From a virus (lineage: Duplodnaviria; Heunggongvirae; Uroviricota; Caudoviricetes): a stretch of DNA of 64,000 nt. The stretch is taken from IMG/VR virus record IMGVR_UViG_3300028591_000140; one strand, 5' to 3'. The first letter of the stretch is position 1. Each line of letters starts with the position of its first letter. The notes beneath the pieces are model-generated. The model had not been told where the DNA came from and made no database searches. It was given only the letters and a program-made list of their open reading frames with translations. Positions 1,094 through 33,533 of the stretch are shown here, one piece after another. The translations under genes were made by a program, and so were the position numbers.

Positions 1094-3799
1094 TTAGTCG
1101 TTGATCTCACGATTCAGAGTTGAAACGGACACGCCAAGAGTGTCAGCCACTTCCGCATAGGTATAGCCTTTGCTAAGAAGAGTCTTTGCTCTTGCGACAG
1201 AAGCAGCACTCAGTGTTTTACTTGCACGAGGAGTTGCTCTTGCCTTCAAATCGTCGATATTTGTGAATCGGAGAATATCCATCAGCATATTGTCGCTGAT
1301 AGCACCAGCTTGAATGGCTGTCCATTCACGATCGCTAATTGATATTGCGATGTTATCCGGATTGTTCGGATTTCTGCTTCTGGTGCCAACAGCTTGACGG
1401 GCTCTGGCAATTTCCTGAGAGCGAATCTTTTTCTTATCGTCTTTATCGAGATTCGGGTTTGCATTGATACGAGCCGAACTCTTAACGCTCGCAATCAATT
1501 GAGCCTGACGCTCAAGAGGCGAATTTTTCTTTGCAATATTCAGTTTAGCAAGCAAAGACGCTCTTTCATTTGCATAAGCTTCTTTGGCAGAAGCATTCTG
1601 CTGAAGACGGCCAGTTCGGATCTGTTCCTTTCTGGCAGCATTACCAAGCGCCTTAAGCTTGTTGGCGTGTTCAGCGTAAATATCTTCTATGATGGTACCG
1701 GAAGAAAGATCATAAGCATTACCGCCGCGATTAAATGTTTCGGTCATCTTATCGCTCTTGATGGTCTTAGGCTCGTAGCTTCCATCTTTCTTCTTTGACA
1801 TCTTGCCAGTATTCCTAAATATCTTTTGGCCAGACAGGTAAAGCTGTTGCTCTTCCGGAGTCATTTTACTTAAGCTCCGAACTTCAGTTCTGTCAGGGAC
1901 ATACTCAGGAGACTTGGCTCTGGATATCAAGGTAGAAGCACCGCCATTGGCTTTGCCCTGATACTTTTTATTCAGCTCTTTGATGCCGTTATCCTTTTCG
2001 GATGCTCTCCAGTCAAGATTGTGCTTTTCAGCATCAATCACGACCATGGAGTGTTTAACGGCACGAGCAATTTCTTGCTCAGTAGCATTTCGAATCGTCA
2101 TATCGGTAATCAGATTCGAAACCTTCCCCATTTGCATCTGCTTATGGAATCCAGTCTCAGGACCGGTTTTCGGCATACCTTCATAAGCAGAATATCTTGT
2201 CTTGGGATCGAAGCCTTCCAGATCCTCGAGATATTTGGCAGTACGGATCTTGACACCCTTTGTCGGAATGACAGTTACCGTATCGCCATCAAAGTCTGCG
2301 CCGGAAAGCTGAGCGGCAACATGTGAATTGATGCCGACCGCGGTTTTGGCATTACCGAGAAGTCTTCGGCCTTCCTCATTATTGTTATTTACACGCAAAC
2401 GAGGCATCTCGAAAGGACCGGCGTGAGGATATCTTATTAGAACAACCTCTTCGCCATTTTCATAGTTCGGAGCATAGATCTCCGTGTCCTTAAGAGAACC
2501 GATCGGAAGAATGACGTGTGCAGCCTGACGAGGAAGAGCCGCAGCTTTCAGATGAATAGCGGCAGAATCGCAATCATCAGCAAAAGACTCAAGAAGCTTG
2601 CGCTTAATCGTCGGGTTTGTGAGAGCACAGATTTCATCGAATTCCTGTTTCTTCTCTTTGTAGGTAATATCAAGTTGCTTTTTGGCAAGCTGAGGCGGCT
2701 GCTTGGATAGAAACTGAGAGGCCAGATTCTTAGACCATTTCTGCCAGTCCTCATCCTCATTGACAATGTTGAGAGCTCCGCGCTGATCCTTAATAGATGC
2801 GCCGAAGGGATTCTCAGGATCATCCTTCATCTTCTTCAGAACATCCATCTTCGGAGTGCCTCTTGGTTTGTTGGTATTAAATATAATGTCAACCCCATCC
2901 GGCATCTCTTTCGGATCGCCATACATTGCCATGCCTTTTAGGTAGTGGGTTCCATCGACAGCGATACGAACTTGAGCATATCGACTTGCACCAATGTTCA
3001 GATCGGAAACTCCTTCACGAATCTCAATGACGCCGTCTTTGTCAATGCCACCATCTTCAGAATATCTTATTTTGACACGGTCAGAATCAATACTCTGAGG
3101 GGTTTGCATCTTCTTGACATAGTCACCATAGTCCTCAAACTTAACACCTTCGGGAGAAGAAATCTGATCACGATTCTTATAAACTTCTTCGTAAGGAACA
3201 TCGCCCTTTGTCAGAACGACAACATTGGTTTTCTGAGTCGGATCAGATGCTTGAGGGACTGAGATTCGATGGTACTTGTAGCCTTCCTGTTTCAGAAGCT
3301 CGGTAGCTGCTTTAAGCTGTTCTTTGCTCACATTGAGCTGAATGTTAACGCCTTCGCCAACATCCAAATATTTTCTCTTTTCAACCTGCTCTTTCAGCTC
3401 ATCAGCCAGAATCGTTGCACGATCCCGACGGACTTGAAACTCAGGCTTGAGATAGTTTCGAACAGTCGATTCAGGAATGCCAAGCTCTTTGGAGATAGCT
3501 GTTTTTGAATTACCGGCATCATAAAGAGTCTGCACACGACGGATCATATCCTTCTTCTGTTCATTAACAGCAAGAGTGTGCATAGCTCGATATTGACCGG
3601 TGCTCATCTTGAAAGCCTCAGCAATCTGTTTGTCAGTAAGACCTTGTTTCTTCAGATCATTAGCTCTCGAAAGAAAGTTTCGGTTTCTCTGAGGATTCTT
3701 ACCTGAACCCCATGGGTATCTGCCGGAATGGCGAGGAGTGCCATAATGCGAAGCATCTCTGTCAGAGTCCGGAAAATATCCAGAGTAACTCTTTTCCAT
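1094..3799 (-). CDS. 901-aa protein with beta-prime-like DPBB catalytic signature (RYPHAGP ... GADFDGDTVTV, compare NADFDGD of RNAP beta-prime). Candidate YonO-like or crAss-gp66-like single-subunit non-canonical RNA polymerase. Several HTH-like segments. N-terminus carries the shared HYG..GRYPWGSG motif
   Basis: SD AAGGAGCG 7 nt upstream of ATG. Motif spacing (R-x-P-x-x-H, about 32 aa, ADFDGD) mirrors bacterial and archaeal beta-prime. A TOPRIM (FDGD) primase is the less likely alternative. Confidence 0.45.
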   Translation of the reverse strand: MEKSYSGYFPDSDRDASHYGTPRHSGRYPWGSGKNPQRNRNFLSRANDLKKQGLTDKQIAEAFKMSTGQYRAMHTLAVNEQKKDMIRRVQTLYDAGNSKTAISKELGIPESTVRNYLKPEFQVRRDRATILADELKEQVEKRKYLDVGEGVNIQLNVSKEQLKAATELLKQEGYKYHRISVPQASDPTQKTNVVVLTKGDVPYEEVYKNRDQISSPEGVKFEDYGDYVKKMQTPQSIDSDRVKIRYSEDGGIDKDGVIEIREGVSDLNIGASRYAQVRIAVDGTHYLKGMAMYGDPKEMPDGVDIIFNTNKPRGTPKMDVLKKMKDDPENPFGASIKDQRGALNIVNEDEDWQKWSKNLASQFLSKQPPQLAKKQLDITYKEKKQEFDEICALTNPTIKRKLLESFADDCDSAAIHLKAAALPRQAAHVILPIGSLKDTEIYAPNYENGEEVVLIRYPHAGPFEMPRLRVNNNNEEGRRLLGNAKTAVGINSHVAAQLSGADFDGDTVTVIPTKGVKIRTAKYLEDLEGFDPKTRYSAYEGMPKTGPETGFHKQMQMGKVSNLITDMTIRNATEQEIARAVKHSMVVIDAEKHNLDWRASEKDNGIKELNKKYQGKANGGASTLISRAKSPEYVPDRTEVRSLSKMTPEEQQLYLSGQKIFRNTGKMSKKKDGSYEPKTIKSDKMTETFNRGGNAYDLSSGTIIEDIYAEHANKLKALGNAARKEQIRTGRLQQNASAKEAYANERASLLAKLNIAKKNSPLERQAQLIASVKSSARINANPNLDKDDKKKIRSQEIARARQAVGTRSRNPNNPDNIAISISDREWTAIQAGAISDNMLMDILRFTNIDDLKARATPRASKTLSAASVARAKTLLSKGYTYAEVADTLGVSVSTLNREIND

Positions 3800-3802: not shown

Positions 3803-4360
3803 TTACGCTCCTTCATCCTGAACCTGAGACAGCCGCTTATCAAAGAAGATGATCTTCTCCATGATTGCCAGAATATCCACTGGGTCCGGATTAAACACAT
3901 TGACTTCGTCTGATTGGTAAATTCTCAACTCAATATCAATCTTGTTGGGATCGACACCATACTCCAGACAAAAGAGTGCAGCGTAGATCATTAACTGCTC
4001 CATATGAGCAGGCATGGCACCAGTTTTCAAATCGTGAATTCTCAGAATGTCGTTTCGAAAGCAAATAGCATCTGCTGTGCCAAAACAATTTTCTGAATAA
4101 TATAAAGGCTGTTCTGGTGTCATTTGAAAACCTATTGCATCGTTTACATACATGTTCAAGGTTTTCTTGGATTTCGGAAGCTTGATACCAAGCTCAATAG
4201 CTCGACGAGCGAAATCATGCAGCTCAGTTCCTCGTTGAGTTGCCAATGCATTACGAAATGCGGATATCAATTTCTCTTCATCATAGTTGAGCCAGTGATA
4301 CTTGGAAGCGCTTAGAAAAGCATGTCTTCCTTCAAGATTTGAATGCCGATTGAAGATCAT
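3803..4360 (-). CDS. PD-(D/E)xK nuclease (RecB/Cas4/YqaJ-like exonuclease)
   Basis: Motifs GTADAICF ... IHDLKTG ... QLMIYA match the D / ExK / Y pattern of RecB-family nucleases. Confidence 0.55.
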   Translation of the reverse strand: MIFNRHSNLEGRHAFLSASKYHWLNYDEEKLISAFRNALATQRGTELHDFARRAIELGIKLPKSKKTLNMYVNDAIGFQMTPEQPLYYSENCFGTADAICFRNDILRIHDLKTGAMPAHMEQLMIYAALFCLEYGVDPNKIDIELRIYQSDEVNVFNPDPVDILAIMEKIIFFDKRLSQVQDEGA

Positions 4361-4696: not shown

Positions 4697-5941
4697 CTAC
4701 TTCGAAAGAAAACGACTCTCATTGAAGTTTTTCTTTTGCTGAAGTGCTCTTGCGATGGCTAAATCCAAGGGACAACTTGATTTCAGTCGGTAATAATATA
4801 AATCCGTAAATGGAGTGTTCATTCGATCTATGCGACCGGCAGATTGAACCATGACTTTGTAGGAGTAATTGAGAGAATAGAAAATAATTGTGTCAGTCTC
4901 GATACAGTTCCAACCTTCAGCACCCGCAAAGTATTGAACAAGGTATACCCATTTGTCAGCAATGGGAATTGGCTCGTGCTTTTGACCATTCCACTCCGCA
5001 ACTTTAACATCATCACCATAAGGAAGACTGCGGAGAATATCCAGCTCGTAGTTGTAGTTATAGAAGATGATTGTTTTTGGATGAGTCTTTCTTAACTCAA
5101 GAATGGCATCTCCACGACTCGGGTCAGAGTTGATCGCCTTCCTGGCCACATAGCACAACTCAACCGCATTAGCTATTGGAATATCTTGATAGATGTCCCA
5201 CCTGGTTGCCATGATCCGTTTATAGAGCTCTCGATCATACTTGACAGATACCGTTTCATGATGAGCTGTTGTTGGCCGTGTGTAATCCATGTTTACAAGA
5301 ATCTTCTCACGAAGTCGCCAAAGTCGCCCTTGTTCCAAATATCTATCTACTTGAGGAAACTTGGCGAAACGCTTATACACTACATGCTGTCGGATGAAAT
5401 CGGTCTTGTTTCGATAGAAACCATTTGCCACAAAGACCGGCATGTAGTCCATCCAAGTGTCACCTGGAGTAGCACTCAACAATATCCAGTGATTTGCCGC
5501 TGAAATCTTCCAAAAGGATTTTGTCCATTCACCGGTTCCTACAACTCGCTGTTCGTCAAATATAAAGAACGCATTCTGAACAGTTACATACTTTTTGATG
5601 TTATTCCATGAATCGACATGGACCTCCATAAGACCATGGTAGATCGAATCCTCATCACCAGATATCAAGAACGGAATCAATTCTTTTTCCCATTCTTTTG
5701 TATCCCGTTTCCGAGCGGTTGTGATGATGTACAGGCTTTTAGGATGAGCCATTGGTACATAGTCATCATCAAAACCATGAAGAGTCCCATCCAGCATTCC
5801 GTCGCATTCTTTGCAAAAATAATAGGCAATTGCGGTTCTGGACTTTCCAGAGCCAACCTTGCCACAAAGGATTGAGCCGTTTCTCAATCTCTCAATTGCA
5901 TCCCATTGGTAGTCATAGAGTGCGACCAATCTATTTTCCAC
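4697..5941 (-). CDS. Superfamily-2 DNA helicase (DEAD/DExH-like)
   Basis: Walker A GKVGSGKS, motif II FDEQ, motif III LLSATPGDTW, helicase-C-like C-terminus. Confidence 0.6.
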   Translation of the reverse strand: MENRLVALYDYQWDAIERLRNGSILCGKVGSGKSRTAIAYYFCKECDGMLDGTLHGFDDDYVPMAHPKSLYIITTARKRDTKEWEKELIPFLISGDEDSIYHGLMEVHVDSWNNIKKYVTVQNAFFIFDEQRVVGTGEWTKSFWKISAANHWILLSATPGDTWMDYMPVFVANGFYRNKTDFIRQHVVYKRFAKFPQVDRYLEQGRLWRLREKILVNMDYTRPTTAHHETVSVKYDRELYKRIMATRWDIYQDIPIANAVELCYVARKAINSDPSRGDAILELRKTHPKTIIFYNYNYELDILRSLPYGDDVKVAEWNGQKHEPIPIADKWVYLVQYFAGAEGWNCIETDTIIFYSLNYSYKVMVQSAGRIDRMNTPFTDLYYYRLKSSCPLDLAIARALQQKKNFNESRFLSK

Positions 5942-6001: not shown

Positions 6002-6490
6002 TCAGAACGGGAGATCCTCACCGATATCTTCCTCATCGAGATTCCGATACTTCTTCTCGAACTCATTCTCAGCGATGGTGACATACATGTTCTTGACATA
6101 TGCCTTCACACCACTCTTGCCATTGACCTCCCAAACATAGGGACGGACGATGACATCTACGTTTTCGATCTCGGCATAATCCAGAACTGAAATGGTATCC
6201 TCAGTCAGTTCGGTCTTCTTGCCTCCGGTAATCAGCCAAATCTTCGGCGGGAAGTTGTCAAAGGCAACGGCAACCTGAAGGTATGCCTGTGGAACATCAT
6301 CAGGATCACGCGGAGAGAGATACTTAATGTTCCAGCCAATATCTTTCAGGTCCTCGGCAACATCATTGTCAAGAACCAGGCAGAAGTTTCTCTTTCCCTT
6401 TGCATTGAACTTGCTCTCCTTGCCAGCAAAATTGCGGAAGATGATTCTCGCATTCTCCACCGAAATATTAGGAATTCTCTGATTAGCCAT
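6002..6490 (-). CDS. Probable single-stranded DNA-binding protein (phage SSB-like)
   Basis: Acidic C-terminal tail ending EEDIGEDLPF, like the SSB DDDIPF tip; sits between the helicase and the polymerase. Confidence 0.45.
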   Translation of the reverse strand: MANQRIPNISVENARIIFRNFAGKESKFNAKGKRNFCLVLDNDVAEDLKDIGWNIKYLSPRDPDDVPQAYLQVAVAFDNFPPKIWLITGGKKTELTEDTISVLDYAEIENVDVIVRPYVWEVNGKSGVKAYVKNMYVTIAENEFEKKYRNLDEEDIGEDLPF

Positions 6491-6526: not shown

Positions 6527-9500
6527 TTAAGAGGCGAAAGCCTCAAAGTCTCCATAAGCGGAGATTGAAGTAATCGCCTCATCGACCATGGCCGCATAGT
6601 ATCTGCGGTCAATATCTTTTTCTTTACCGAGAGTTCGAACAATCTCGGCTTCCAGCCAACGATAGCCTTTGGTTCCCGTAGCGGCTGCATACTTTCCGTT
6701 CTTCTCTCTCAGAAGAACACCGCCGCCACAGTCAGGCATGACAGGACAAAAAGACCCAGCCTTACCTACGAAGTGATAGTCATGACCCTTAGCAATCTCC
6801 TCATCCAAGCGCCAATGCTCACGGACCAAATCATTTGAACGTTGAATGGTCTCAATATCAATGCCAGTTTCATCGACATCTCGAGATCCAATGACCTTTA
6901 AGTTCTGTTGCCAGTTCTTACCCCAAATATCCATAAGCTCCCGCTCAACTTTGACCAACTGTTTCTCAAAACCGCTTACATCGGGCAGACTTTCATTCAT
7001 GTCCAAATATAAAGCAGAGGTTACAGTCTTGGTTTCGCACATGTCTCTGAACTTAATCGGAGACTGGCTAAACAGAGTCTTGAATACATACGGAACCTGA
7101 AACTGAGTGCCAGTTGCAGTCCACGGGGTCATGATCTTCTCGCCGGTCGAAAGCTCAAACTCATGAGGACCGTCATTGTACTTAGCAATATATACAGCAT
7201 CGTTCACAAGGCACATCTTCTCATAGGTTGCCTCATGCTCAAAAGTATAGCCATACTCCTTGCCATACTTCATAACGAAGTCAATAATTTCCGGAGTAGC
7301 ATCCGGAATCTTTATGGAGTCCGTCTTAATATGAGCAACAGTATAGCCAAGTTCCTGAACCTTATGCTTCAGATTAATCATAAATAGAGCGCCACGCTTG
7401 GCAACAATGTTGTCTACATTACGTGGATCCCTAAAGGGATTCTCAAAGTTAGCCGAAGTCAACCCGTAGACGCTGTTAATGGCTATCTTAAGAGCATAGG
7501 ACAAAGCTTTCGCCTGTTCGTTACTGGTCAGGTATTTGGCAAGCTTTCCATTGAACATTTTGCCTGCGGCCTCGAAATCTTTATGCTTAATATAAATTCG
7601 CGCCTGCTTGATGTCGCTGAAATTCTGAGTGTAAGGCCCAAACAGATTCAGGCATTCAATGCTTGTCGGGTGCATAGATGCAATATCCAGCAAAGCAACA
7701 TTGGAGTAGATGCCAGGCTCTGAATAGACATAACCACCTTCACCGGTTTCTTCGCCCCAGTACGTACTCTTACCATTCTCAAACTTATACCCGGGAAACA
7801 TTTCCGACAGATCAGTATAGTTAAACTGAGACTGAGGCTTCTTCTCAGAACCGAATATAATTCTGGTTGTGTGCATGTTAGTTGTGGCATTCACATTCAA
7901 ACCAGAAATGTCTGCCAGAATCTCTCTTGCTATAAAGTCTGCCTGACGGGCATTGAAAACTGCTTCACATGCGATTACATCGTTATCACAGTATTCGGCA
8001 ACCTTCTCCCAGAGTTCTTCCGGAACAGGCTGATCCCAAGGAAGGCCAAGCTCCTGATGGTGAATATCAAGCTCGATCTCCCATTTCTTCAGGCTCTGTT
8101 TCTTTGCACAGAAGTCATAAACATCCGTATATGAAACGTCATAAGCTTCTCCAAACAAGGCATTTGGACTGCCATTAACAATCCTTTGAGAAAGTTCATA
8201 GATCTGCTCGACAGAATATCCAATCATTCTGGCATACAGAATGTGGTTATCGTATCTCCGGCAGTTAAACCCGACCAGTTTAAGACGAAGAAGATTCTCA
8301 ATCTCATTCGGACTGGGATTGATCATACGAACTACCGGATTTCCTTCTCCAGCTTTCTTCCAGTTAACCAGAAGCAGATTTGGGAAAACTTCAACGTCGA
8401 AGAATATAATGACATCGTCATCCGGCTCCATAGATTCGGAAGGATCCTCGGACTTAAACTGCATCTCATTCACCATCTTGATGCAGTCGGTAGCATGATG
8501 AGAGCTCTTAGCCGCGAATGTCAAAATATAAGGACGAAGATCCGTCACATCATAGTGCATTCCGCTTTCATAAGCATCATTCAGAATCTTTAAAATAAAT
8601 TGACAGCTTGTGACAGTAGCATGCGGAGCATACTCTTTCGCCAAGCTGCGCTTTATAATTGTTCTGATTGCTTTTTCATTCTTGATAGAGTCAAAGTTAA
8701 CCATCTTTGTCTCCACCTTAAACGGAAGACCCGACGATATCGTGCCAATCGGGTTTGACGTGCACTGGGTGAGCTTTCTTCGCAGCGAGCTTTTTCCAGT
8801 GAACACCTTCACCTCGATCCCGTCTTCGTAAATCCGGCTTAATCTGTCCGGGTCTCCTCCCGTATAAATATAATGCAGATGAATCCCTTGACCGGACTTG
8901 CTCAGTTCGGCATAAGTCGGTGGCCAATGAGATGCTGCCTCGATATTCTTTTCTAATGACTTTTCACCGCTTTCATCTTTTAGATCGAAGTCAATTACAA
9001 TGTGGTTCTCAGGCACTCGGACATAATGGAGCTTACTTGTGTCAAGCTTTCCAAGTACAGTCTTAACCTCATCCCACTTTTTCCAAGGCCCCTCGGTGTC
9101 CTCTCGAGCATATTGAGCTGGTGCATCCGCCATCTGAATATCAAACACCGATTTCTGGTCTGCAAAGTGAAGCCAATTTCCATCTTCAGCCACAGATTCA
9201 GAGGAAGCTTCATCGGAGGATCCATCTCCATCAGTTCCGGAAATATCATGCTTCTCTTCCTCCATTCCAAACTTGCTTAGTTTTAAGCCTTGGTAATAAT
9301 TCCAGACTTGGTTTCCAGCACTGTCTCTTGTCCGCTCATGGAATTCGTGAAAATAGTTTCTCAGCTCAGTCTTAAATAACCTCTTGCTATATGGATATGG
9401 AACTTTTGCCTCATCGCAAAACTCTTTGTATTTAGACCAAGCTTGCTGAAGAGTGACGCCCTCTCTAAACTCCACAAAATTCTCTTCCATGAAATTATAG

Positions 9501-10549
9501 AAGTCATTAGTGTCACCAAGCATCGTTCTCGGAATATAATTCTCATAGCATAAGGGATCTTCTTTATACACCTGAAGACAATGATAAGCGATTGCTCCGA
9601 GTTCAAACTTGATCTTCTTCATCAAAGTCTGATACCGATTGAATGGAATCTTGTTCTCTGTCGGTGAAACATCAATAAGTCTTCGAAGAATACCAGACTT
9701 ACTATCGGTAATGCGTACCGGATTATTTGTTCCCATGAACAGCATCGTAGAAAATCTTGTCGAATACTGTGACTTAAATTTTTCGTTTACAGTCATCTCT
9801 TCATGAGACACCAAACTATTCAGACGGGTATTCACTTCAATCTTACTCAGATCACCGTCATGCTGAATGGCAACAAGAGGATTCTTCTTAAATGCTTCCA
9901 GAGCAAACGCATCTGTTGAAGAGGCCAGAGCCTTTGCATCAAAAACTGTCCAATATCCTTCGAACAATTCTTGGATCACATTCAGAATCGTTGATTTACC
10001 AGTACCGGCAGAACCATAGAAAACAAGAAACTTTTGTAGAGTCTTCGAATCACCGCTAACAACTGCTCCGATTGCCCATTCAATCTTGTGACGCTCTTCC
10101 TCGGAATATAATGTTCCGACAAGTTCATCCCAAGCGCTATAGTCTCCTTCTTCAAGAGCATAGGGCAATCTCTTAGATGAGTAATCCTCGCGTTTCGCTT
10201 CTGTGTTTGCGAATATCAATTTCTCATCTAAGTTGTGATAGTTGTCTTGCATCTGTTTCTGACAGAACTTACGCCATTTATCTATCACACCGCTATCAGC
10301 ATTCCACATATAGAGAATACTGGCGTCCTTCAATGCGGGATTATTCTTTTTGAAATTATCCAGCTCAGCATCAATCATGTCGATGACATCATCTTGATTC
10401 TGCGACCACGCATTTTTGCGCTCATCCCATATAGCATAAAAGTCACCACCACGGATCATGAGATCCTTTGACGACTTCGTAATGAAGACTGGATAAATTT
10501 CTTGTCCGCCGCGTTTACTATTCCGTAACGCCACTTTCAGAAAATCCAC
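6527..10549 (-). CDS. Fused replicative protein: SF3 (D5/P4-alpha-like) helicase, then AEP primase-polymerase, then family-B DNA polymerase with 3'-5' exonuclease
   Basis: Walker A FYGSAGTGKST. AEP motifs IVIDFDLKDE and SGQGIHLHYIY. Exo I FFDVEVF, Exo II YCDNDV. PolB motif B KIAINSVYGLTS and motif C-like HIKTDSI. GTG start 9 nt after AGGAGG. Confidence 0.8.
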   Translation of the reverse strand: MDFLKVALRNSKRGGQEIYPVFITKSSKDLMIRGGDFYAIWDERKNAWSQNQDDVIDMIDAELDNFKKNNPALKDASILYMWNADSGVIDKWRKFCQKQMQDNYHNLDEKLIFANTEAKREDYSSKRLPYALEEGDYSAWDELVGTLYSEEERHKIEWAIGAVVSGDSKTLQKFLVFYGSAGTGKSTILNVIQELFEGYWTVFDAKALASSTDAFALEAFKKNPLVAIQHDGDLSKIEVNTRLNSLVSHEEMTVNEKFKSQYSTRFSTMLFMGTNNPVRITDSKSGILRRLIDVSPTENKIPFNRYQTLMKKIKFELGAIAYHCLQVYKEDPLCYENYIPRTMLGDTNDFYNFMEENFVEFREGVTLQQAWSKYKEFCDEAKVPYPYSKRLFKTELRNYFHEFHERTRDSAGNQVWNYYQGLKLSKFGMEEEKHDISGTDGDGSSDEASSESVAEDGNWLHFADQKSVFDIQMADAPAQYAREDTEGPWKKWDEVKTVLGKLDTSKLHYVRVPENHIVIDFDLKDESGEKSLEKNIEAASHWPPTYAELSKSGQGIHLHYIYTGGDPDRLSRIYEDGIEVKVFTGKSSLRRKLTQCTSNPIGTISSGLPFKVETKMVNFDSIKNEKAIRTIIKRSLAKEYAPHATVTSCQFILKILNDAYESGMHYDVTDLRPYILTFAAKSSHHATDCIKMVNEMQFKSEDPSESMEPDDDVIIFFDVEVFPNLLLVNWKKAGEGNPVVRMINPSPNEIENLLRLKLVGFNCRRYDNHILYARMIGYSVEQIYELSQRIVNGSPNALFGEAYDVSYTDVYDFCAKKQSLKKWEIELDIHHQELGLPWDQPVPEELWEKVAEYCDNDVIACEAVFNARQADFIAREILADISGLNVNATTNMHTTRIIFGSEKKPQSQFNYTDLSEMFPGYKFENGKSTYWGEETGEGGYVYSEPGIYSNVALLDIASMHPTSIECLNLFGPYTQNFSDIKQARIYIKHKDFEAAGKMFNGKLAKYLTSNEQAKALSYALKIAINSVYGLTSANFENPFRDPRNVDNIVAKRGALFMINLKHKVQELGYTVAHIKTDSIKIPDATPEIIDFVMKYGKEYGYTFEHEATYEKMCLVNDAVYIAKYNDGPHEFELSTGEKIMTPWTATGTQFQVPYVFKTLFSQSPIKFRDMCETKTVTSALYLDMNESLPDVSGFEKQLVKVERELMDIWGKNWQQNLKVIGSRDVDETGIDIETIQRSNDLVREHWRLDEEIAKGHDYHFVGKAGSFCPVMPDCGGGVLLREKNGKYAAATGTKGYRWLEAEIVRTLGKEKDIDRRYYAAMVDEAITSISAYGDFEAFAS

Positions 10550-10731
10550 ACATAGTTACCTCCTTTCTGGGCTTTTATGACTTTACGCCTTTTTCGCCCA
10601 ATATTCGCCTTTGTGATGTTGTGATAAAAATTTTTCTATATTTATATATAAAAAATTAATTTTCTATATTAAGTAAAAAAAAACTATCACAAACATCACA
10701 AACCCAAAATTTCGACATTTTTTCTCTCAAA

Positions 10732-11277
10732 TTATTCACACCGATTTTTCATGTAAAAATTGAGCTGATACCACAATTCGACCCGTCTCAGATCGCCTCG
10801 AAATCCTCGAATCACGAACGGTCCTCCTTGTCCATCAGCCTTGTATTTTCGATCGAGAAATCGTCTCACAACGTACTCAAAATCGTCCTCATCAAAGCAC
10901 CAATCATCGAGTCCATCCAAGCCCAAATTCTCGATCATTTCCCAAAACCAAACGCCGGTTCGGTCCCCTTCATCCGGGTCATACATGATCTCATTTTCAC
11001 AATCTTGAGCCAGCGCAACGAGCACTTCAAGCACCGAACAAGGCCCCGTTTTTTCGCATTCAAATCCGGTTTCCTGCTCAAATATCCATCTCAAATGCTC
11101 GCCGTCTCCAGCCCGATTTCCATCATTTTTGACCAGCCAATAGAAGTCTTCCGAATATAATCCAAGCAATAATTTCTGATACATGTCACGCTGTTCAGCA
11201 TCAGGAATTGCGATTTCAGACAGCCAATTGAGGTAATTTCCGCCATTTTTACCCCAAATTCGCCTATTTTTAGCCAA
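10732..11277 (-). CDS. Hypothetical protein (acidic, 181 aa)
   Basis: Long ORF packed tightly among minus-strand genes. Confidence 0.55.
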   Translation of the reverse strand: MAKNRRIWGKNGGNYLNWLSEIAIPDAEQRDMYQKLLLGLYSEDFYWLVKNDGNRAGDGEHLRWIFEQETGFECEKTGPCSVLEVLVALAQDCENEIMYDPDEGDRTGVWFWEMIENLGLDGLDDWCFDEDDFEYVVRRFLDRKYKADGQGGPFVIRGFRGDLRRVELWYQLNFYMKNRCE

Positions 11278-12426: not shown

Positions 12427-13353
12427 TCAAATCATGTCCCAAATCTGGCCATCGACATTGAAATTGAGGTGAATATTTCTCCGGCAGAGGTCGCTATCGA
12501 GCTGATAATCTCTCATAAAGGAGTCCATATAGCCGAAATCAACACAATCGTCACCGGCTCCTTTGTACCAACCACAGACTGCACCGGCCGGAGTACGAGC
12601 CATTCCGAGAGCATCCAGCACCTCATTCATGAATACGTGACCCCTCTTCTGGAGCATGTCATTGAAGAAATTCTGTGTCTGACGAAGGAATGCTTCCGTG
12701 TAATCAGGGTTCGGATTCCAGGTCAAAGGGGCTGTATGACGGTTGAAGTCGAACTCATACGGGGACTTTTTGTGGTCTTTGATGACTAAATTGTTTCCGG
12801 AAGCCTTGGTCACAGTCCCATCTTCTCCTTCAACCATGATTCCTTTCTCAACTTTGCCACCGGCGAGAAGCACTTTCTCAGCATCCTCGCCAATAACCTC
12901 TGCAACACGCCCTCTGTAGCCCAGGAAAGCCTCCTGAAGGGCAGCATAAGCCGCTGTGGTGTTCAGATATCTTTGCTTCAGAACACCGTGAGAGAGCAGG
13001 AAAAGGGCAATAGAGGCGATTTCCAGGCCGATTGCAGGGGCCAGAGCACGAGCAATCTTCCAGACCATGCGATTATATGCCTTCCAGTTCATCTCTTTTA
13101 CGTCTTTCTCGAGAGGAACCGGCCAGTTATTCTCTTTAGCCTCTTCGACCTTCTTCTGAATATCATCCAGATCCTTGTGGCAGTCTTCAACAGCCTTGGT
13201 CACATGCTTGGCACAGAGGCATCCGGCGACCACAGCACCGATTCCACAGGCAATACCACCTGCAAGAGCCAGTTCAGGGCTGATTTTACGCAGTTTCATA
13301 TATCCTTTGATGGCCAGAGTCTTAGCCGCATTCGTATTAATAGGGAGTTTCAT
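12427..13353 (-). CDS. Two-TM membrane protein, member 1 of a 3-paralog family (with 27655..28569 and 28832..29635)
   Basis: Two N-terminal TM helices, A/E/K-rich linker, conserved C-terminal W/Y-rich domain shared with the two paralogs. Confidence 0.55.
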   Translation of the reverse strand: MKLPINTNAAKTLAIKGYMKLRKISPELALAGGIACGIGAVVAGCLCAKHVTKAVEDCHKDLDDIQKKVEEAKENNWPVPLEKDVKEMNWKAYNRMVWKIARALAPAIGLEIASIALFLLSHGVLKQRYLNTTAAYAALQEAFLGYRGRVAEVIGEDAEKVLLAGGKVEKGIMVEGEDGTVTKASGNNLVIKDHKKSPYEFDFNRHTAPLTWNPNPDYTEAFLRQTQNFFNDMLQKRGHVFMNEVLDALGMARTPAGAVCGWYKGAGDDCVDFGYMDSFMRDYQLDSDLCRRNIHLNFNVDGQIWDMI

Positions 13354-17457: not shown

Positions 17458-17534
17458 TGGTCCAAGTGGCGAGACTCGAACTCACGGCCTCTTGATCCCA
17501 AATCAAGCGCTCTAACCAACTGAGCTACACCTGG
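17458..17534 (-). tRNA. tRNA-Pro (anticodon UGG), CCA encoded
   Basis: Hand-folded cloverleaf: acceptor CCAGGTG/CACTTGG with the C1:G72 pair typical of bacterial tRNA-Pro. D-arm GCTC-AGTTGGTTA-GAGC, anticodon arm CTTGA-TTTGGGA-TCAAG, T-arm GTGAG-TTCGAGT-CTCGC, discriminator A, CCA. Confidence 0.8.
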
Positions 17535-23096: not shown

Positions 23097-24530
23097 TTAC
23101 CAGGTGTACTCGCTGATCTTCTTCTCGAGAGATCCGACACCTTCCTCAGCCAGGAGGATGAAGTCGAAGACCTTCTCAGACCAGCCGGCGATGATATTAG
23201 TCTTTTTGCCGTAGAACTGCTGGGTGCCATAACCCTGAAGATCCACAGCGTGAACCCAAATATCATTTCCGGTCTCCCGACGATACCGATCAGCCAGAGA
23301 CTGAACAGGAGCTCTCCAACTGGAGTTGCACTCGTTGTCGGAAAGGATGATGATACGGTCAGCCTTGATCTTCTGCTGGGTCATGGCCATGAACGGAAGC
23401 TCCATATAGGTTCCTCCGCCGCATCTGCTGGACGATACTGCCTCCAGAATGCTGACTCGCTTCGGAACAGTGACGTTCTTGATCTGGTTATTGAACGTGT
23501 AGACGACAGCGTCCTCACAGATCCGATTAGCGATCAGACCGAGCATGAAGGAAATATCACAGCAGCGGACATCGGATTTGTCGCTGACAGGATCGCTCAT
23601 AGATCCGGAAATATCAATCGCAATGACCGTCTTTCCCGGAATCTTGGGCAGGTTGGAGATCGAAGCGTCCAGAGCATCCTCAAGCACATCATAGGTCTTG
23701 CTGGTGCCGAGGCCCTCATTCTTCAGAGTCCTGTATGCCGACAGGAATCGGAACGGGAGCTGCTTGGACTTCCTGACCGCCACAGGATCACGAAGTTTGG
23801 CGTAGACATCATCCAGGTTATACGGATCAGCCTTAATGATGTTGCGCAGGTTTCTCATCATAGCCATGTAACCGAGCTTCTTGCCTTCGATGAGATCCTC
23901 CCAAACCTCTTTCTTGTTTCCTCTGGCGCTGAGCTGAGTCTCCCAGGTTTCAGGGATCTCCATGGTTCCCTCAATGCAGCGCTTCCAGAGTGCAGCCTGC
24001 TCACCATTCATAGGCTTGGGACGGCAGAGACACAGGAGGTCACGCATCTTGACGGACTTGGAATCACCCTTATACTTGGCGAGGCTGTACTCATCCAGGG
24101 TCTTGAGGACATCGCCGATTCCCTTCTTCAGAGAGTTGGGGATGGGCTTGCCGAAGGTTGCGAGGTAGTAAGACATGATCTCAGTGATGTCGTCTGCTCT
24201 CACGGCAACACCTTTGACTGTCTGGCGCACGAAAGGTTTACCCTCAGGTGCATGGGCGAGATGGGCCGTCAGGACATGAGAAATGGACCTCATGTTAAAC
24301 TCCCGTCTGGCAAAGACAGCGAGATTGCTGACAAACTCGGGATCAGCCTTGATGACTCGATCCAGAGTCTCCAGAATATCATCGCTGTTGTCCCCATAAA
24401 ACTTCTTCTCGTTGAAGAAGCTGGTGAGGACCTGAGTGACGAGCTTGGATTTGTCGGCCATAGAGTATGCGACATGTCCTTCGTGGTTGGTCGTGCGAAT
24501 GGTGGGTCTCGGGGAATTGAACTTAGCCAT
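23097..24530 (-). CDS. rsr: Ro60/Rsr-like protein: TROVE domain plus C-terminal vWA domain with MIDAS motif
   Basis: vWA MIDAS DISGSM (VIAIDISGSMSD). Size about 477 aa from ATG at 24530 with SD GGAGGTG. Long helical TROVE-like N-terminal region. Sits immediately upstream of the Y-RNA-like array. Confidence 0.6.
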   Translation of the reverse strand: MAKFNSPRPTIRTTNHEGHVAYSMADKSKLVTQVLTSFFNEKKFYGDNSDDILETLDRVIKADPEFVSNLAVFARREFNMRSISHVLTAHLAHAPEGKPFVRQTVKGVAVRADDITEIMSYYLATFGKPIPNSLKKGIGDVLKTLDEYSLAKYKGDSKSVKMRDLLCLCRPKPMNGEQAALWKRCIEGTMEIPETWETQLSARGNKKEVWEDLIEGKKLGYMAMMRNLRNIIKADPYNLDDVYAKLRDPVAVRKSKQLPFRFLSAYRTLKNEGLGTSKTYDVLEDALDASISNLPKIPGKTVIAIDISGSMSDPVSDKSDVRCCDISFMLGLIANRICEDAVVYTFNNQIKNVTVPKRVSILEAVSSSRCGGGTYMELPFMAMTQQKIKADRIIILSDNECNSSWRAPVQSLADRYRRETGNDIWVHAVDLQGYGTQQFYGKKTNIIAGWSEKVFDFILLAEEGVGSLEKKISEYTW

Positions 24531-24689
24531 AGTTTGGCACCTCCGAAAAATTTTTATAGTAGGGAAAATATGATGGACCTCCCGTCTAAACAGAGAAAAG
24601 CAAAGTCGGATAAATGGTTTTTGGAAAAGTGGTGCAGACACTTTTAAAAATATGTTCATCTTGAAGTAACCGACTTTAACACTACTGTC

Positions 24690-25049: not shown

Positions 25050-25173
25050 GCGGAGAATATCTGAAACGGTTTAATTTTGCTTTTTGCTCTACCGACTGAG
25101 CTACATCTCAAAATGAGAAGATAAGATTCGAACTTACGACAGAAAAGGAAGTAACCGTTTCATTCACTACCGC
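25050..25173 (-). ncRNA. Y-RNA-like (YrlA-like) tRNA-mimic module Y2
   Basis: Minus strand: GCGGUAGUGAAUGAAACGGUUACUUCC (GGUAGUGA matches the conserved Ro-binding-stem sequence of Y RNAs); T-arm GUAAG-UUCGAAU-CUUAU; closed acceptor hairpin CUUCUCA-UUU-UGAGAUG; D-arm UA-GCUC-AGUCGGUA-GAGC; then AAACCGUUUCAG, complementary to UGAAACGGUU of the 5' part. Confidence 0.5.
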
Positions 25174-25178
25174 ATAGT

Positions 25179-25310
25179 TGGCGAGGATGACCGGAATCGA
25201 ACCAGTGTCGTCGGCAATTACAGTGCGAAGTAACCATTTCATACACTTCAAATATAATTGAGGAAAACTGAAAAGGTACATTACGCCGTTCTACCACTGA
25301 ACTACATCCT
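25179..25310 (-). tRNA. tRNA-like gene with about 58-nt internal insertion: perfect 7-bp acceptor GAGGAUG/CAUCCUC, D-arm, T-arm, encoded GCCA; anticodon-like loop CUGUAAU (GUA, Tyr-like)
   Basis: 5' half GAGGATG-TA-GTTC-AGTGGTA-GAAC-G at 25286-25310; 3' half ACTGG-TTCGATT-CCGGT-CATCCTC-G-CCA ending 25179. Between them lies GCGTAATGTACCTTTTCAG ... GAAGTGTATGAAATGGTTACTTC, the same helix element as in the Y-RNA-like modules. Insertion position (D-arm/anticodon-stem junction) is non-canonical. Confidence 0.5.
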
Positions 25311-25384
25311 CGAAATATAGGCCGAGCAATTCAAATTCGCTTTTAAATTCAATAAATTAGCATAATATATCATGCTTTGCGTAA

Positions 25385-25821: not shown

Positions 25822-25947
25822 AAAAAGCTGAAACGGTACATATAGCGCTCTATCCGACTGAGCTACCACTCTGAACGAGTAGACTGGATTCGAACCAATG
25901 ACCTCTTCATCCCTAATGAAGTAACCGTTTCATACACTGCCGCAGCG
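25822..25947 (-). ncRNA. Y-RNA-like (YrlA-like) tRNA-mimic module Y1
   Basis: Minus strand: GCGGCAGUGUAUGAAACGGUUACUUCA; variable-arm-like hairpin CUUCA-UUAGGGA-UGAAG; T-arm AUUGG-UUCGAAU-CCAGU; closed acceptor-like stem CUACUCG-UUC-AGAGUGG; D-arm UA-GCUC-AGUCGGAUA-GAGC; GUACCGUUUCAGC pairing with UGAAACGGUUAC (10 bp, one bulged U); then UUUUU. Confidence 0.5.
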
Positions 25948-25950
25948 GAA

Positions 25951-27654: not shown

Positions 27655-28569
27655 TTACCTCCACTTCATATCGGTTTCGTCATCATCCAGCTCATAGTCC
27701 AGACGCTGAGCATCTTCGCCATTACTGTCCTCAAGATTGAGATGCCACTTCGGAGCGCCAGACTTCGTGAAGCCGATCACATGGGCCACACTATCATCGG
27801 ACAATTGAATGGCCGTGATCTTCAGCTCAATCGGGCAATTGAACCAGCCGAAGTCCTTACCGATCTTAACGCCATTCGGAAGAGTATCATCTGCATTGAT
27901 GTGCTCATCACTCGCCGGCAGATCCAGATATTCACGCCAAGTATCGTAACAGACTGCGGACTTTCTCATACCCCAGCGAGTATGAGTCATTTCCAGATTG
28001 AGTTTTTCGGTCATTTTCCGAATGAAGTCCAGATCAGACCAGTAATAGTCGTGAAGGATCGGGTCATAGCATAGTGTGTTACCATGGCCGGTGTTGATGA
28101 CCGTCGCATAGTTGACCGGATGAGACTTCACATCATCTTTCGCCATCTCATCCTTCATTTTCTCATACTCTTTCGGCCCATACTTCTCGATGACTTTCTT
28201 CTCGAGTTTCTCGGCCTCCTCTGTTTTGGTTGCCAATGCTGCCGTGGCGATGGCTGCCTGAGCATACTTGATCTTATAGCCGGCAAATATCATCGCACCA
28301 CCGCCAATGACCATTGCTGTCGGGATGCCAAGATGAAATGCCAGAATCTTTCCTTTCTCGATCAGGTACTCCTTATGAGAAAGTCCCTCCTTAGCATCGA
28401 GGGTAGCAAGCTCTGTCACCATCTTAGGCGTCTCTATGCCGGTCTTGACTGCGCCTCCTGCCATCATGCAGACACCAAATATCACTCCGACAGTCGGGGC
28501 AGCCTTGATAAGTGCTTTACCTGTGAGTTTCGCAGTTGTCTGGATTGTTTTCAGATTCAATGGAACCAT
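27655..28569 (-). CDS. Two-TM membrane protein, family member 2 (paralog of 12427..13353 and 28832..29635)
   Basis: Same architecture and conserved linker and C-terminal blocks. Confidence 0.55.
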   Translation of the reverse strand: MVPLNLKTIQTTAKLTGKALIKAAPTVGVIFGVCMMAGGAVKTGIETPKMVTELATLDAKEGLSHKEYLIEKGKILAFHLGIPTAMVIGGGAMIFAGYKIKYAQAAIATAALATKTEEAEKLEKKVIEKYGPKEYEKMKDEMAKDDVKSHPVNYATVINTGHGNTLCYDPILHDYYWSDLDFIRKMTEKLNLEMTHTRWGMRKSAVCYDTWREYLDLPASDEHINADDTLPNGVKIGKDFGWFNCPIELKITAIQLSDDSVAHVIGFTKSGAPKWHLNLEDSNGEDAQRLDYELDDDETDMKWR

Positions 28570-28831: not shown

Positions 28832-29635
28832 TCAGAATGGCAGTGGTCCCGAATCCTTGAGATACGAAATATCATTCGGATGAATCCCGTACTCCAACTG
28901 ATAGAAATGGCTGCCATCCGGATTGTCAATGATCTGAGGAGCTAACTCGATCCAAGCGCCACCATAGTAGCCAGCGCCCTCAGTGAACATCTCATCGTCA
29001 TAGCTCCAGCCAAGATGCATTGATTTGGAATTGCCTTTGAGACCAAACATGTGAAGAATACTGTCCAGATACACGGTATCCATTTGCAGGAGTCTCTTGT
29101 TAGCACAAAGTTCAACCCAGAGAATATCCTTCAGATCTGCGTAGATCCATTGCTCGCTATAGGGTTCCCAGATCTTGAACTTCTCGGATGTATTCAGGGC
29201 ATACTTATCAACTTTTTGACGGAGCTCTTTTTCTTCGGCAATTTCCTTCTTGACTTCTTTGACTGCATTCTCTCCATACTTCTCGCTGAATTTCTTCTCG
29301 AGATCCTCGCTTGCAGTCTTATAAGCCAACGCCGCAGCGGTCAGAGCAGTCTCATTGCTGACATGCCACTTATGTGCACCAATCGCACAACCCATTGTGA
29401 ATAAAGCCATCAATCCGGCCGGAATATACTTTTTCCAGTTCTTTCTGACTACTTTGCGGACTGTCTGCTTTACCGGAATATCACTGTCTTCCACAAATAG
29501 AACAGCCTCAGTGGTATCCGATAAGCAATCCAGGGTTGCCGTATAGGTTAAGTAACCCGTAGTGACAACCCCGGAACAGACAAAGCCAGTCAGAAGCGCC
29601 GGACCGTTTTTAAGGGCCCAGGTTTTCAGACTCAT
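28832..29635 (-). CDS. Two-TM membrane protein, family member 3
   Basis: Paralog of 12427..13353 and 27655..28569. Confidence 0.55.
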   Translation of the reverse strand: MSLKTWALKNGPALLTGFVCSGVVTTGYLTYTATLDCLSDTTEAVLFVEDSDIPVKQTVRKVVRKNWKKYIPAGLMALFTMGCAIGAHKWHVSNETALTAAALAYKTASEDLEKKFSEKYGENAVKEVKKEIAEEKELRQKVDKYALNTSEKFKIWEPYSEQWIYADLKDILWVELCANKRLLQMDTVYLDSILHMFGLKGNSKSMHLGWSYDDEMFTEGAGYYGGAWIELAPQIIDNPDGSHFYQLEYGIHPNDISYLKDSGPLPF

Positions 29636-30689: not shown

Positions 30690-31577
30690 TTAAAACAGCA
30701 GACTTGCAGTGCTGTCCCATTTGGTGTAAAGTTTGCAATTCGGTCTCAGGACCAAATATTTGAGTTCGGCTTTGGCCTGCGTAGACATGCAGTCATCATC
30801 CAGAACAGTAGAAATCCCATCTACATCATATCTAGTCTGACCAAATGCCAGAATCTCAAGAGGCCGACCATGCTCCCGAATATAATTCTTGATGCTCTCT
30901 ATATACTCGGGAGTGGCTGCGTGTTCTTTGATCCACTGATTCTGAGGACAATCCGGATTGGACTGATCAGAATATAACACTCTGAATGTGATTTGATCAG
31001 CATTAAGTACATGTTTGACATGCTGAAATATCTTCTCTGGCTTAGGCTGAGATTGTCCAGGCAGAATTTGGTCAGTCATATTTAGCGAGATTCGAAGATT
31101 CAGACCAGAACTCTTGATCATTTCACATAACTTGGAAATATCAATACGCTCTTTTGCTCCTGTGTATTTCCAATTAATTAGGTGAGATAGCGAGCTGATA
31201 CTGAGGCTCACCGTATTAACCCCGACATGATCACGCAGAAACTCAATATAATTCTGATCCAGGAAAGCTCCGGCCGTCTGAATCGAAATATGTCGGAACG
31301 GCTTGCTCAGGCTCTCGTTCAGTAGACCAAAGAGAGTGAGAAAAGCTCGATTCTGTGTGGGTTCGGCATCACCGGTCAGCATGACAGCGTTGCAATTGTT
31401 ATCACGGGCATAGGCCAGACGCTTTTTGTAATCCTCAATTGCCTTGTGAATCTCAGGATTATTAAACGCCATCCGATTCTGCCCGTAATCTTCACTGTGT
31501 TGTTTGCTCACACAGAACGCGCAGTCATTCACGCACTTTTCAGTGGGAACAACAATTGAAAGTGACTGAATTTGCAT
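30690..31577 (-). CDS. Radical-SAM enzyme (QueE or activase-like); function unassigned
   Basis: CVNDCAFC CxxxCxxC cluster near the N-terminus. Confidence 0.55.
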   Translation of the reverse strand: MQIQSLSIVVPTEKCVNDCAFCVSKQHSEDYGQNRMAFNNPEIHKAIEDYKKRLAYARDNNCNAVMLTGDAEPTQNRAFLTLFGLLNESLSKPFRHISIQTAGAFLDQNYIEFLRDHVGVNTVSLSISSLSHLINWKYTGAKERIDISKLCEMIKSSGLNLRISLNMTDQILPGQSQPKPEKIFQHVKHVLNADQITFRVLYSDQSNPDCPQNQWIKEHAATPEYIESIKNYIREHGRPLEILAFGQTRYDVDGISTVLDDDCMSTQAKAELKYLVLRPNCKLYTKWDSTASLLF

Positions 31578-33322: not shown

Positions 33323-33533
33323 AATCCTTCCTCCGTGAGCTCCATGTTGGTAATGCCCAGAATGTTCATGAGAAACAGGGTCTGGCGCAGATGCTCCTTG
33401 CAAAAATACTTGGGATTTGGATCGTTCGGACCGCCAGCAAGAGAACGTACCTCGCTCATGTTACCGCCATTGTCTTTCAGCTTGGCAAAGTCAATGGCTG
33501 GATTGATCCCTTTTCCGCAGATAAAGCAGCGAT

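What the first reader, a model, noticed from the sequence alone, without database searches (positions are those of the whole stretch)
6527..10549. Single 1340-aa polypeptide fusing SF3 helicase, AEP primase-polymerase and family-B DNA polymerase; a truncated helicase paralog elsewhere
Order from the N-terminus: D5/P4-alpha-type helicase (Walker A FYGSAGTGKST), an acidic linker, AEP motifs (IVIDFD; SGQGIHLHYIY), PolB exonuclease motifs (FFDVEVF; YCDNDV), and polymerase motifs (KIAINSVYGLTS; KTDS). Having helicase, primase and polymerase all in one chain, with the helicase at the N-terminus, is an uncommon architecture. A 175-aa stand-alone paralog of the helicase P-loop segment (33534..34061, GPPATGKSTILHYVQKIFE) sits 23 kb away; it may be a regulatory or decoy fragment.
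Basis: partly seen in the sequence, partly recalled or inferred. Interest (0 to 1): 0.65.

Follow-up and report, generated by a model that had tools for sequence, protein, structure and literature searches.

The report
GP55-type all-in-one phage replicase
This 1340-residue phage protein does join a helicase, a primase and a proofreading DNA polymerase in one chain, but it belongs to a family described in 2016 and tested biochemically in 2025; the only new point is that its small "paralog" belongs to an undescribed family of mini-ATPases found in many such phages.

The parts
6527..10549 (-). Gene for the GP55-type four-in-one replicase (1340 aa plus stop codon)
   Evidence: ORF. phrog_4210 matches end to end (aa 1-1339 against profile 1-1285 of 1304, E=0). 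BLASTP against GP55 of phage 1706 is end to end at 39% identity, E=0.
9260..10549 (-). N-terminal region with the SF3 (D5/P4-type) helicase core, aa 1-430. Walker A GSAGTGKST is at 9989-10015 (K185), Walker B VAIQHDGD at 9851-9874 (D231), motif C FMGTNN at 9722-9739 (N275), and the Arg finger GILRRLID at 9671-9694 (R289/R290).
   Evidence: Pfam DUF5906 covers aa 177-290 at 5.9e-14. TIGR01613 covers aa 159-386 at 1.6e-14. A profile search of PDB hits 7ola at 1e-7 and 6k9c at 3e-5. The listed residues are invariant in 14 replicases of 42-96% identity.
9167..9259 (-). Acidic, low-complexity linker, aa 431-461
   Evidence: 10 D/E in 31 residues. pLDDT is below 50 in the model. The region is poorly conserved in alignment A2.
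8714..9166 (-). PriS-like AEP primase catalytic domain, aa 462-612. Motif I IVIDFD is at 8984-9001 (D520/D522), motif II SGQGIHLHYIY at 8864-8896 (H557), and the likely motif III GIEVKVF at 8801-8821 (E579).
8450..8692 (-). Alpha-helix domain (aHD), aa 620-700, with Y666 and F678
   Evidence: Four helices are predicted at aa 625-694. Y666 and F678 align with GP55 Y655 and F667, whose mutation abolishes priming. Both are invariant in A2.
7835..8437 (-). PolB 3'-5' exonuclease subdomain, aa 705-905. Exo I FFDVEVF is at 8384-8404 (D718/E720), Exo II GFNCRRYDN at 8246-8272, and Exo III YCDNDV at 7976-7993.
   Evidence: phrog_1252 'DNA polymerase' covers aa 692-910 at 2.9e-41. D718/E720 align with GP55 D712/E714, whose mutation makes the enzyme exonuclease-dead. 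These residues are invariant.
6530..7834 (-). PolB polymerase subdomain, aa 906-1340. Motif A LLDIASMHPTS is at 7661-7693 (D955), motif B KIAINSVYGLTS at 7454-7489, and motif C HIKTDS at 7316-7333 (D1077).
   Evidence: E. coli Pol II models cover aa 933-1079 at E 2.4e-8. The profile search hits 3k57 at 1.8e-7 and archaeal PolBs. D955 aligns with GP55 D949, whose D949A mutant loses polymerase activity.
33534..34061 (-). Stand-alone mini-ATPase (175 aa), a compact paralog of the replicase helicase core. It has Walker A GPPATGKST (aa 47-55), D75 (Walker B equivalent) and N100 (sensor-1 equivalent). The Arg finger and the B' region are missing.
   Evidence: BLASTP gives E 4e-15. hhalign gives 99.1% probability, E 1.6e-18, aa 7-163 against replicase aa 139-338. 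There are 8 close homolog clusters in the same gene neighbourhood. dN/dS is 0.10-0.29. The wider family has at least 44 clusters.
10732..11277 (-). Conserved 181-aa gene of unknown function directly upstream of the replicase; a possible partner
   Evidence: phrog_4678 at 2.6e-45, no Pfam hit. It is 34-40% identical to Rainydai gp56, ReqiPoco6 gp071, Scap1 gp41 and Damascus gp49, each directly upstream of its replicase, and to FP_oengus gp26, one gene further upstream.

Best explanation
The gene encodes the phage's replicative enzyme, a GP55-type 'four-in-one' replicase. By homology with GP55 of Lactococcus phage 1706, the mechanism is as follows. The N-terminal SF3 helicase domain binds a nucleotide (UTP or dTTP in GP55), mediates self-association and unwinds DNA. 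The central PriS-like AEP domain, together with the helical aHD domain, makes short RNA primers. The C-terminal family-B polymerase extends those primers and proofreads with its 3'-5' exonuclease. Primer hand-off can occur in trans between subunits of a dimer. What is shown here: the homology, the domain folds and order, and the conservation of every catalytic residue. What is inferred: the activities themselves, the nucleotide preference and the oligomeric state. The 175-aa ORF is a separate, selected gene. It encodes a cut-down copy of the same ATPase core that can probably bind nucleotide. It lacks the DNA-contacting B' segment and the trans-acting arginine finger. It is therefore not a helicase, and most likely acts as an accessory or modulator that docks on the replicase helicase domain. 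That last step is inference only.
Against: No activity was measured for this protein, and at 39% identity to GP55 the details (nucleotide preference, primer start site, dimer) may differ. Pfam and NCBIfam do not detect the AEP domain, and they detect PolB only below their curated cut-offs. PolB motif C reads KTDS rather than the classical DTDS, although this is invariant in the family. For the mini-ATPase there is no direct evidence of interaction with the replicase. The AF2 model is poor (pLDDT 56.8). In this window the gene lies 23 kb from the replicase. Most replicase-bearing phages found (for example Arthrobacter and Gordonia phages, FP_oengus and 1706) showed no detectable stand-alone copy.
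Confidence: 0.9

Rival explanations
1. The long ORF is an assembly or sequencing artefact that fuses separate helicase-primase and polymerase genes.
For: None found. The idea came only from the unusual length and domain order.
Against: The same uninterrupted architecture occurs in 252 independently sequenced phage genomes and in thousands of metagenomic proteins of 1250-1400 aa. GP55 was expressed and purified as one 1317-aa polypeptide.
Confidence: 0.01
2. The polymerase is a protein-primed (phi29-type) PolB, and the AEP domain is vestigial or has another role.
For: Zhang et al. align the PolB motifs with phi29 DNA polymerase, and GP55 shows strand displacement and very long products like phi29.
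Against: The profile search of PDB hits only E. coli Pol II and archaeal PolBs, and no phi29-type chain at E<=1. Only about 41 residues separate motif B from motif C, which leaves little room for a TPR2-like insertion (my knowledge of phi29 structure). GP55 extends RNA primers made by its own AEP domain, and D509A abolishes primer synthesis. The AEP catalytic residues are invariant. No terminal-protein gene was identified in the stretches annotated.
Confidence: 0.04
3. The 175-aa ORF is a decaying remnant of a duplicated replicase gene with no function.
For: It matches only part of the replicase and has large internal deletions.
Against: The ORF is intact, has its own ribosome-binding site and keeps its length of 147-178 aa in 8 homolog clusters of 53-90% identity. 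dN/dS is 0.10-0.29. Walker A, D75, N100 and a C-terminal motif are invariant. Similar stand-alone proteins are found in at least 44 clusters at 50% identity and in many cultured Streptomyces phages.
Confidence: 0.05
4. The mini-ATPase is an independent nucleotide-binding enzyme or regulator (for example a kinase-like or DNA-repair factor) that no longer works with the replicase.
For: In this window it sits 23 kb from the replicase, between a DNA ligase gene and another P-loop gene. It is no closer to its own replicase than to distant ones (34-47% identity), which indicates long independent evolution.
Against: In Streptomyces phages its counterpart sits inside the replicase gene cluster. It retains the N- and C-terminal helical segments that flank the ATPase core in the replicase. 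All contexts seen belong to the same phage group, with DUF6353 genes nearby.
Confidence: 0.35

Closest known systems
GP55 of Lactococcus phage 1706 (four-in-one replicase; Zhang et al. 2025 NAR, PMC12205980; architecture noted by Kazlauskas et al. 2016 NAR, PMC4889955)
   Same: It has the same domain order (SF3 helicase, PriS-like AEP, aHD, PolB exo and pol) and a similar length (1317 against 1340 aa). The end-to-end alignment has 39% identity. All experimentally essential residues are conserved (K189/K185, D509/D522, Y655/Y666, F667/F678, D712-E714/D718-E720, D949/D955). The replication-gene neighbours are similar, and both phages carry a phrog_4291 'RNA-dependent RNA polymerase'-type gene.
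   Different: The proteins are only 39% identical. The window protein has a longer acidic linker and a divergent, longer segment at about aa 1180-1290. The window phage also carries a stand-alone mini-ATPase paralog, which the searches here did not detect in phage 1706.
'DNA primase/polymerase' of actinobacteriophages (Arthrobacter, Gordonia, Streptomyces, Microbacterium, Rhodococcus ReqiPoco6) and the 'helicase/polymerase' of Faecalibacterium phage FP_oengus
   Same: These are full-length homologs at 45-56% identity with the same architecture. A conserved gene of about 180 aa lies upstream of the replicase, and DUF6353 genes are nearby.
   Different: The hosts differ, and none exceeds 60% identity. 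The closest relatives (up to 96%) are unnamed metagenomic proteins.
NrS-1 phage primase-polymerase (PDB 6a9w) and pRN1 ORF904 prim-pol
   Different: Those enzymes use one active site for priming and extension, depend on a helix-bundle domain, and have the helicase C-terminal. Here the AEP domain only primes (in GP55), uses an unrelated aHD, and sits after the helicase.
Poxvirus D5 / phage P4 alpha-type primase-helicases
   Same: The SF3 helicase core is D5/P4-like (DUF5906, TIGR01613).
   Different: The domain order is reversed (primase is N-terminal in D5 and P4, as in 94% of fusions), and those proteins have no fused polymerase.

Membership tests
GP55-type four-in-one replicase | End-to-end homology with GP55 in a single polypeptide of about 1300 aa | tested here: met
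   BLASTP gives 39% identity over aa 1-1334, E=0. phrog_4210 is covered 1-1285 of 1304.
GP55-type four-in-one replicase | N-terminal SF3 helicase with Walker A Lys (GP55 K189), Walker B, sensor 1 and Arg finger | tested here: met
   K185, D231, N275 and R289/R290 are invariant. Pfam DUF5906 scores 5.9e-14. PDB 7ola scores 1e-7.
GP55-type four-in-one replicase | PriS-like AEP domain with catalytic acidic residues (GP55 D509) | tested here: met
GP55-type four-in-one replicase | aHD helical domain with the essential aromatic residues (GP55 Y655, F667) | tested here: met
   Y666 and F678 are aligned and invariant. Four helices are predicted at aa 625-694.
GP55-type four-in-one replicase | C-terminal PolB with Exo I-III and polymerase motifs A-C (GP55 D712/E714, D949) | tested here: met
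   D718/E720, Y766/D767, Y853/D857, D955, K1021..G1029 and T1076-D1077-S1078 are invariant. Pol II hits score 1.8e-7.
GP55-type four-in-one replicase | Measured helicase (UTP/dTTP-dependent), RNA primase, polymerase and exonuclease activities; dimer formation | not testable with these tools
   This requires purified protein. It is known only for GP55.
Protein-primed (phi29-type) PolB | Sequence affinity to phi29-type polymerases, TPR1/TPR2 insertions, and a terminal-protein gene | tested here: not met
   No phi29-type PDB chain appears at E<=1, whereas Pol II and archaeal PolB are hit. The short spacing between motifs B and C argues against a TPR2 insertion. No phylogeny or PolB structure model was made, so this is a weak test.
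D5/P4-type primase-helicase | Primase domain N-terminal to the SF3 helicase, with no fused polymerase | tested here: not met
   The helicase core is at aa 139-340, the AEP domain at aa 462-612 and PolB at aa 705-1340.
SF3 helicase (applied to the 175-aa paralog) | Walker A, Walker B and motif C (sensor 1) | tested here: met
   GPPA(T/S)GKST, D75 and N100 are invariant in 9 sequences and align with K185, D231 and N275.
SF3 helicase (applied to the 175-aa paralog) | Arginine finger, and the B' DNA-binding segment between Walker B and motif C | tested here: not met
   R289/R290 align with W115/T116. About 18 residues of the B' region and about 24 residues after the Walker A helix are deleted.

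The most novel reading that the evidence does not exclude
The mini-ATPase (33534..34061, and its relatives in at least 44 sequence clusters and many Streptomyces phages) is a dedicated second subunit of GP55-type replicases. It would be a nucleotide-binding copy of the helicase core without an arginine finger or a DNA-binding hairpin. It would dock on the replicase helicase domain to load, cap or regulate its oligomer. If so, the supposedly self-contained 'four-in-one' replisome has an unrecognised trans-acting partner in some lineages.
Probability: 0.3. Interest if true: 0.5.

Novelty: new member of a known kind. Interest (0 to 1): 0.27.

Why it matters
The replicase itself adds little. It is one more member, probably from a gut phage, of a family already shown to carry out helicase, primase, polymerase and proofreading functions in one chain. 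Useful by-products are a residue-level map for this lineage and independent fold support for the AEP domain that HMM libraries miss, which explains why databases label these proteins only 'DUF5906' or 'DNA polymerase'. The more interesting lead is the family of stand-alone mini-ATPases derived from the replicase helicase core. It has no PHROG family of its own. Phage records annotate it inconsistently, as hypothetical, AAA-ATPase, ABC-like, terminase small subunit, helicase or primase/polymerase. It may be an accessory factor of these compact replisomes. The conserved gene of about 180 aa upstream of the replicase is a second candidate partner.

Tried and rejected
1. Frameshift or fusion artefact: rejected because of the conservation.
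2. Pfam and NCBIfam domain mapping: these found only the helicase (DUF5906) and sub-threshold PolB hits, and gave nothing for the AEP domain. A single-sequence PDB search found only Pol II.
4. The AF2 model of the 175-aa paralog, built from a 9-sequence alignment, was too poor (pLDDT 56.8) for a fold search, so none was run.
5. The IMG/VR scan for the mini-ATPase found only weak P-loop matches.
6. I tested whether the mini-ATPase is a recent duplicate of its own replicase. It is not: it is 46% identical to its own replicase and 34-46% to distant ones.
7. Contig look-ups for distant mini-ATPases mostly gave contigs too short to show whether a replicase is nearby.
8. A megablast of the first 25 kb against phage genomes found no close cultured relative.
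Full report
**Observation.**
The window holds an uninterrupted minus-strand ORF at 6527..10549 encoding 1340 aa. It starts at a GTG preceded by AAAGGAGG nine bases upstream. Its N-terminus (MDF...) matches that of its characterised homolog.
- Walker A GSAGTGKST, aa 179-187
- IVIDFD, aa 517-522
- SGQGIHLHYIY, aa 552-562
- FFDVEVF, aa 716-722
- YCDNDV, aa 853-858
- KIAINSVYGLTS, aa 1021-1032
- KTDS, aa 1075-1078

An acidic linker spans aa 431-461. The 175-aa ORF at 33534..34061 (-) is also real and matches aa 139-197 of the large protein at 46% identity, E 4e-15.

**Is the fusion genuine?**
Yes. A tblastn search of 50,697 phage genomes finds 371 records, and in 252 of them one match covers at least 80% of the protein. 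These are phages of Arthrobacter, Gordonia, Streptomyces, Microbacterium, Curtobacterium, Rhodococcus and Lactococcus, plus Faecalibacterium phage FP_oengus. All are below 60% identity and are annotated 'DNA primase/polymerase', 'helicase/polymerase' or 'DNA polymerase'. The metagenomic protein search saturated at 8000 hits, and the best 120 are all 1250-1400 aa at 61-96% identity. PHROG family phrog_4210 matches from residue 1 to 1339. A sequencing frameshift cannot explain this.

**Domain calls.**
- Helicase: Pfam DUF5906 (aa 177-290, 5.9e-14) and TIGR01613 'phage/plasmid primase, P4 family' C-terminal domain (aa 159-386, 1.6e-14). A profile of 14 family members hits a solved primase-helicase (7ola, 1e-7) and the NrS-1 'Primase' chains 6k9c and 6k9e over the ATPase region (aa 178-286), each at 3.1e-5.
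- PolB: the signal is weak but consistent. E. coli Pol II models cover aa 933-1079 (2.4e-8, below the curated cut-off). The profile search hits 3k57 at 1.8e-7 and archaeal PolBs at about 3e-3. phrog_1252 'DNA polymerase' covers aa 692-910 at 2.9e-41.

**What it is.**
The architecture is already in the literature. Kazlauskas et al. [quoted passage not shown] They also note that the primase is N-terminal to the helicase in 94% of fusions. Zhang et al. 2025 (PMC12205980) purified GP55 (1317 aa) and reported the following:
- DNA polymerase activity, lost in D949A.
- 3'-5' exonuclease activity, lost in D712A/E714A.
- UTP/dTTP-dependent helicase activity, lost in K189A.
- RNA primase activity, lost in D509A. 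Priming also needs a new alpha-helix domain (aHD), in which Y655 and F667 are essential.
- Dimerisation through the helicase domain.
- De novo replication of ssM13 DNA.
- More than 1000 homologs, mostly in human-associated phages.

I fetched GP55 from NC_010576. The window protein aligns with it over its whole length at 39% identity, E=0. In the primase core the identity is about 70%. Each experimentally essential GP55 residue has an identical counterpart: K185, D522 (with D520), Y666, F678, D718/E720 and D955. In an alignment of 14 replicases spanning 42-96% identity, these residues are invariant. So are D231 (Walker B), N275 (sensor 1), R289/R290 (Arg finger), H557, E579, Y766/D767, Y853/D857, K1021/N1025/Y1028/G1029 and T1076/D1077/S1078. 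Motif C is 'KTDS' throughout the family.

The gene context fits a replication module. Downstream lie a phage ssDNA-binding/annealing protein (6002..6490), an SF2 helicase (4697..5941) and an exonuclease (3803..4360). A phrog_4291 'RNA-dependent RNA polymerase'-type gene also lies nearby, as in phage 1706.

**Mechanism.**
By homology, the protein is the phage's replicase. The helicase opens the duplex, the AEP domain plus aHD lays down RNA primers, and the PolB domain extends and proofreads them. Priming and extension are able to work in trans within a dimer. Homology, fold, domain order and conserved catalytic residues are shown here. The activities, nucleotide preference and oligomeric state are inferred.

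The PDB profile search hits only Pol II and archaeal PolBs, and no phi29-type chain at E<=1. The spacing between motifs B and C is short. GP55 extends its own RNA primers. I did not build a phylogeny.

**The small paralog.**
This is the part not covered by the literature I found.
- Its best PHROG match is the replicase family itself (aa 7-66, 3.7e-11).
- It has only eight close homolog clusters (53-90% identity, 147-178 aa). The three contigs examined, which carry two of these clusters, show the same gene neighbourhood, downstream of an ATP-dependent DNA ligase.
- dN/dS is 0.10-0.29, so it is a maintained gene.
- A profile-profile comparison shows homology over nearly its whole length, not only around the P-loop. 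Residues 7-163 align with replicase aa 139-338 (probability 99.1%, E 1.6e-18).
- Relative to the replicase it has two deletions: about 24 residues after the Walker A helix and about 18 residues between Walker B and motif C. The latter is the region that forms the DNA-binding hairpin in SF3 helicases (my knowledge).
- Walker A, D75 (equivalent to D231) and N100 (equivalent to N275) are invariant. The arginine-finger pair R289/R290 is replaced by W115/T116.
- It is about equally distant from all replicases (34-47% identity), so it is not a recent duplicate.

An exhaustive HMM search of 1.84 billion representative proteins gave 158 hits. After local re-scoring, 44 of the 152 sequences examined are stand-alone proteins of 130-215 aa in which the match begins within the first 30 residues, and 43 of these have an intact Walker A. 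Another 51 are replicases of at least 1100 aa, and the rest look like fragments. Thirty of the small proteins share the same compact layout. Of these, 26 hit phrog_4210 and none has a PHROG family of its own.

Cultured phages carry such proteins too. Streptomyces phage Rainydai gp53 (165 aa) lies 2.3 kb upstream of its replicase. At least 30 Streptomyces phage records (Bing, Soshi, Rima, DrGrey, OlympicHelado and others) have a stand-alone copy. In the three I could check against replicase coordinates (Soshi, OlympicHelado, Meibysrarus) it lies about 2.3-2.7 kb upstream of the replicase. These copies are annotated variously as hypothetical protein, AAA-ATPase, ABC-like protein, terminase small subunit, helicase or DNA primase/polymerase.

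The AF2 model of the window's copy was too poor to use (pLDDT 56.8). Its secondary structure does show four strands alternating with helices around the P-loop.

My reading is that this is a nucleotide-binding, non-helicase derivative of the replicase ATPase core that probably acts with the replicase. There is no direct evidence for that. An independent function remains a serious rival.

**Verdict.**
The novelty is limited to the mini-ATPase family and a conserved upstream neighbour. Interest is low to moderate.

Noticed in passing
window 23097..24659 (-), 25060..25161 (-), 25182..25311 (-), 25827..25931 (-): The phage encodes a Ro60 homolog (Pfam TROVE 1.1e-34 plus vWA_Ro60 3.8e-13). Next to it are two sub-threshold YrlA (Y RNA-like) matches (43.0 and 38.1 bits against a gathering score of 69; E 8.7e-8 and 2.3e-6). 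There is also a tRNA-model match with a roughly 70-nt insertion in the anticodon arm that ARAGORN did not call. The region 24001-26000 has reversed GC and AT skew. The related contigs L002 and L003 carry the same Ro60 gene. This looks like a phage Ro60 and Y-RNA-like module.
   Followed up: partly
window 10732..11277 (-): This 181-aa protein of unknown function (phrog_4678, no Pfam hit) lies directly upstream of the replicase. It is 34-40% identical to Rainydai gp56, ReqiPoco6 gp071, Scap1 gp41 and Damascus gp49, each directly upstream of its replicase, and to FP_oengus gp26, one gene further upstream. It is a conserved candidate partner of the replicase.
   Followed up: partly
window 1094..3799 (-): This 901-aa protein matches phrog_4291 'RNA-dependent RNA polymerase' end to end and has helix-turn-helix domains at both ends. 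The same family is found in phage 1706 (orf75) and ReqiPepy6 (gp106). It is presumably a phage single-subunit RNA polymerase of the YonO-like kind, but that was not tested.
   Followed up: no
window 12427..13353 (-), 27655..28569 (-), 28832..29635 (-): Two window ORFs are DUF6353-type paralogs: 12427..13353 (Pfam 1.3e-43, phrog_2152) and 28832..29635 (phrog_2152). A third, 27655..28569, is inferred only from its position next to the latter; its equivalents in L002 and L003 carry DUF6353. Such genes also flank the replicase region in FP_oengus and Rainydai, and they occur next to distant mini-ATPases in L017 and L018.
   Followed up: partly
window 32558..33403 (-): The second gene downstream of the mini-ATPase (a 72-aa gene lies between them in L002 and L003) encodes another P-loop protein, with the motif GYPGIGKSS (281 aa; phrog_4182, unknown function; no Pfam hit).
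   Followed up: no
window 30690..31577 (-) and 34741..36015 (-): A radical SAM protein (Pfam 1.4e-11) and an ATP-dependent DNA ligase (phrog_114, 5.4e-72) lie in the same early-gene region as the mini-ATPase.
   Followed up: no
window 10550..10731: The intergenic stretch upstream of the replicase gene is very AT-rich, with runs such as TTTTTTACTTAATATAGAAAATTAATTTTTTATATATAAATATAGAAAAATTTTTATCAC. It could be a promoter or an origin-like region.
   Followed up: no
window 17458..17534 (-): A tRNA-Pro (anticodon TGG) gene.
   Followed up: no
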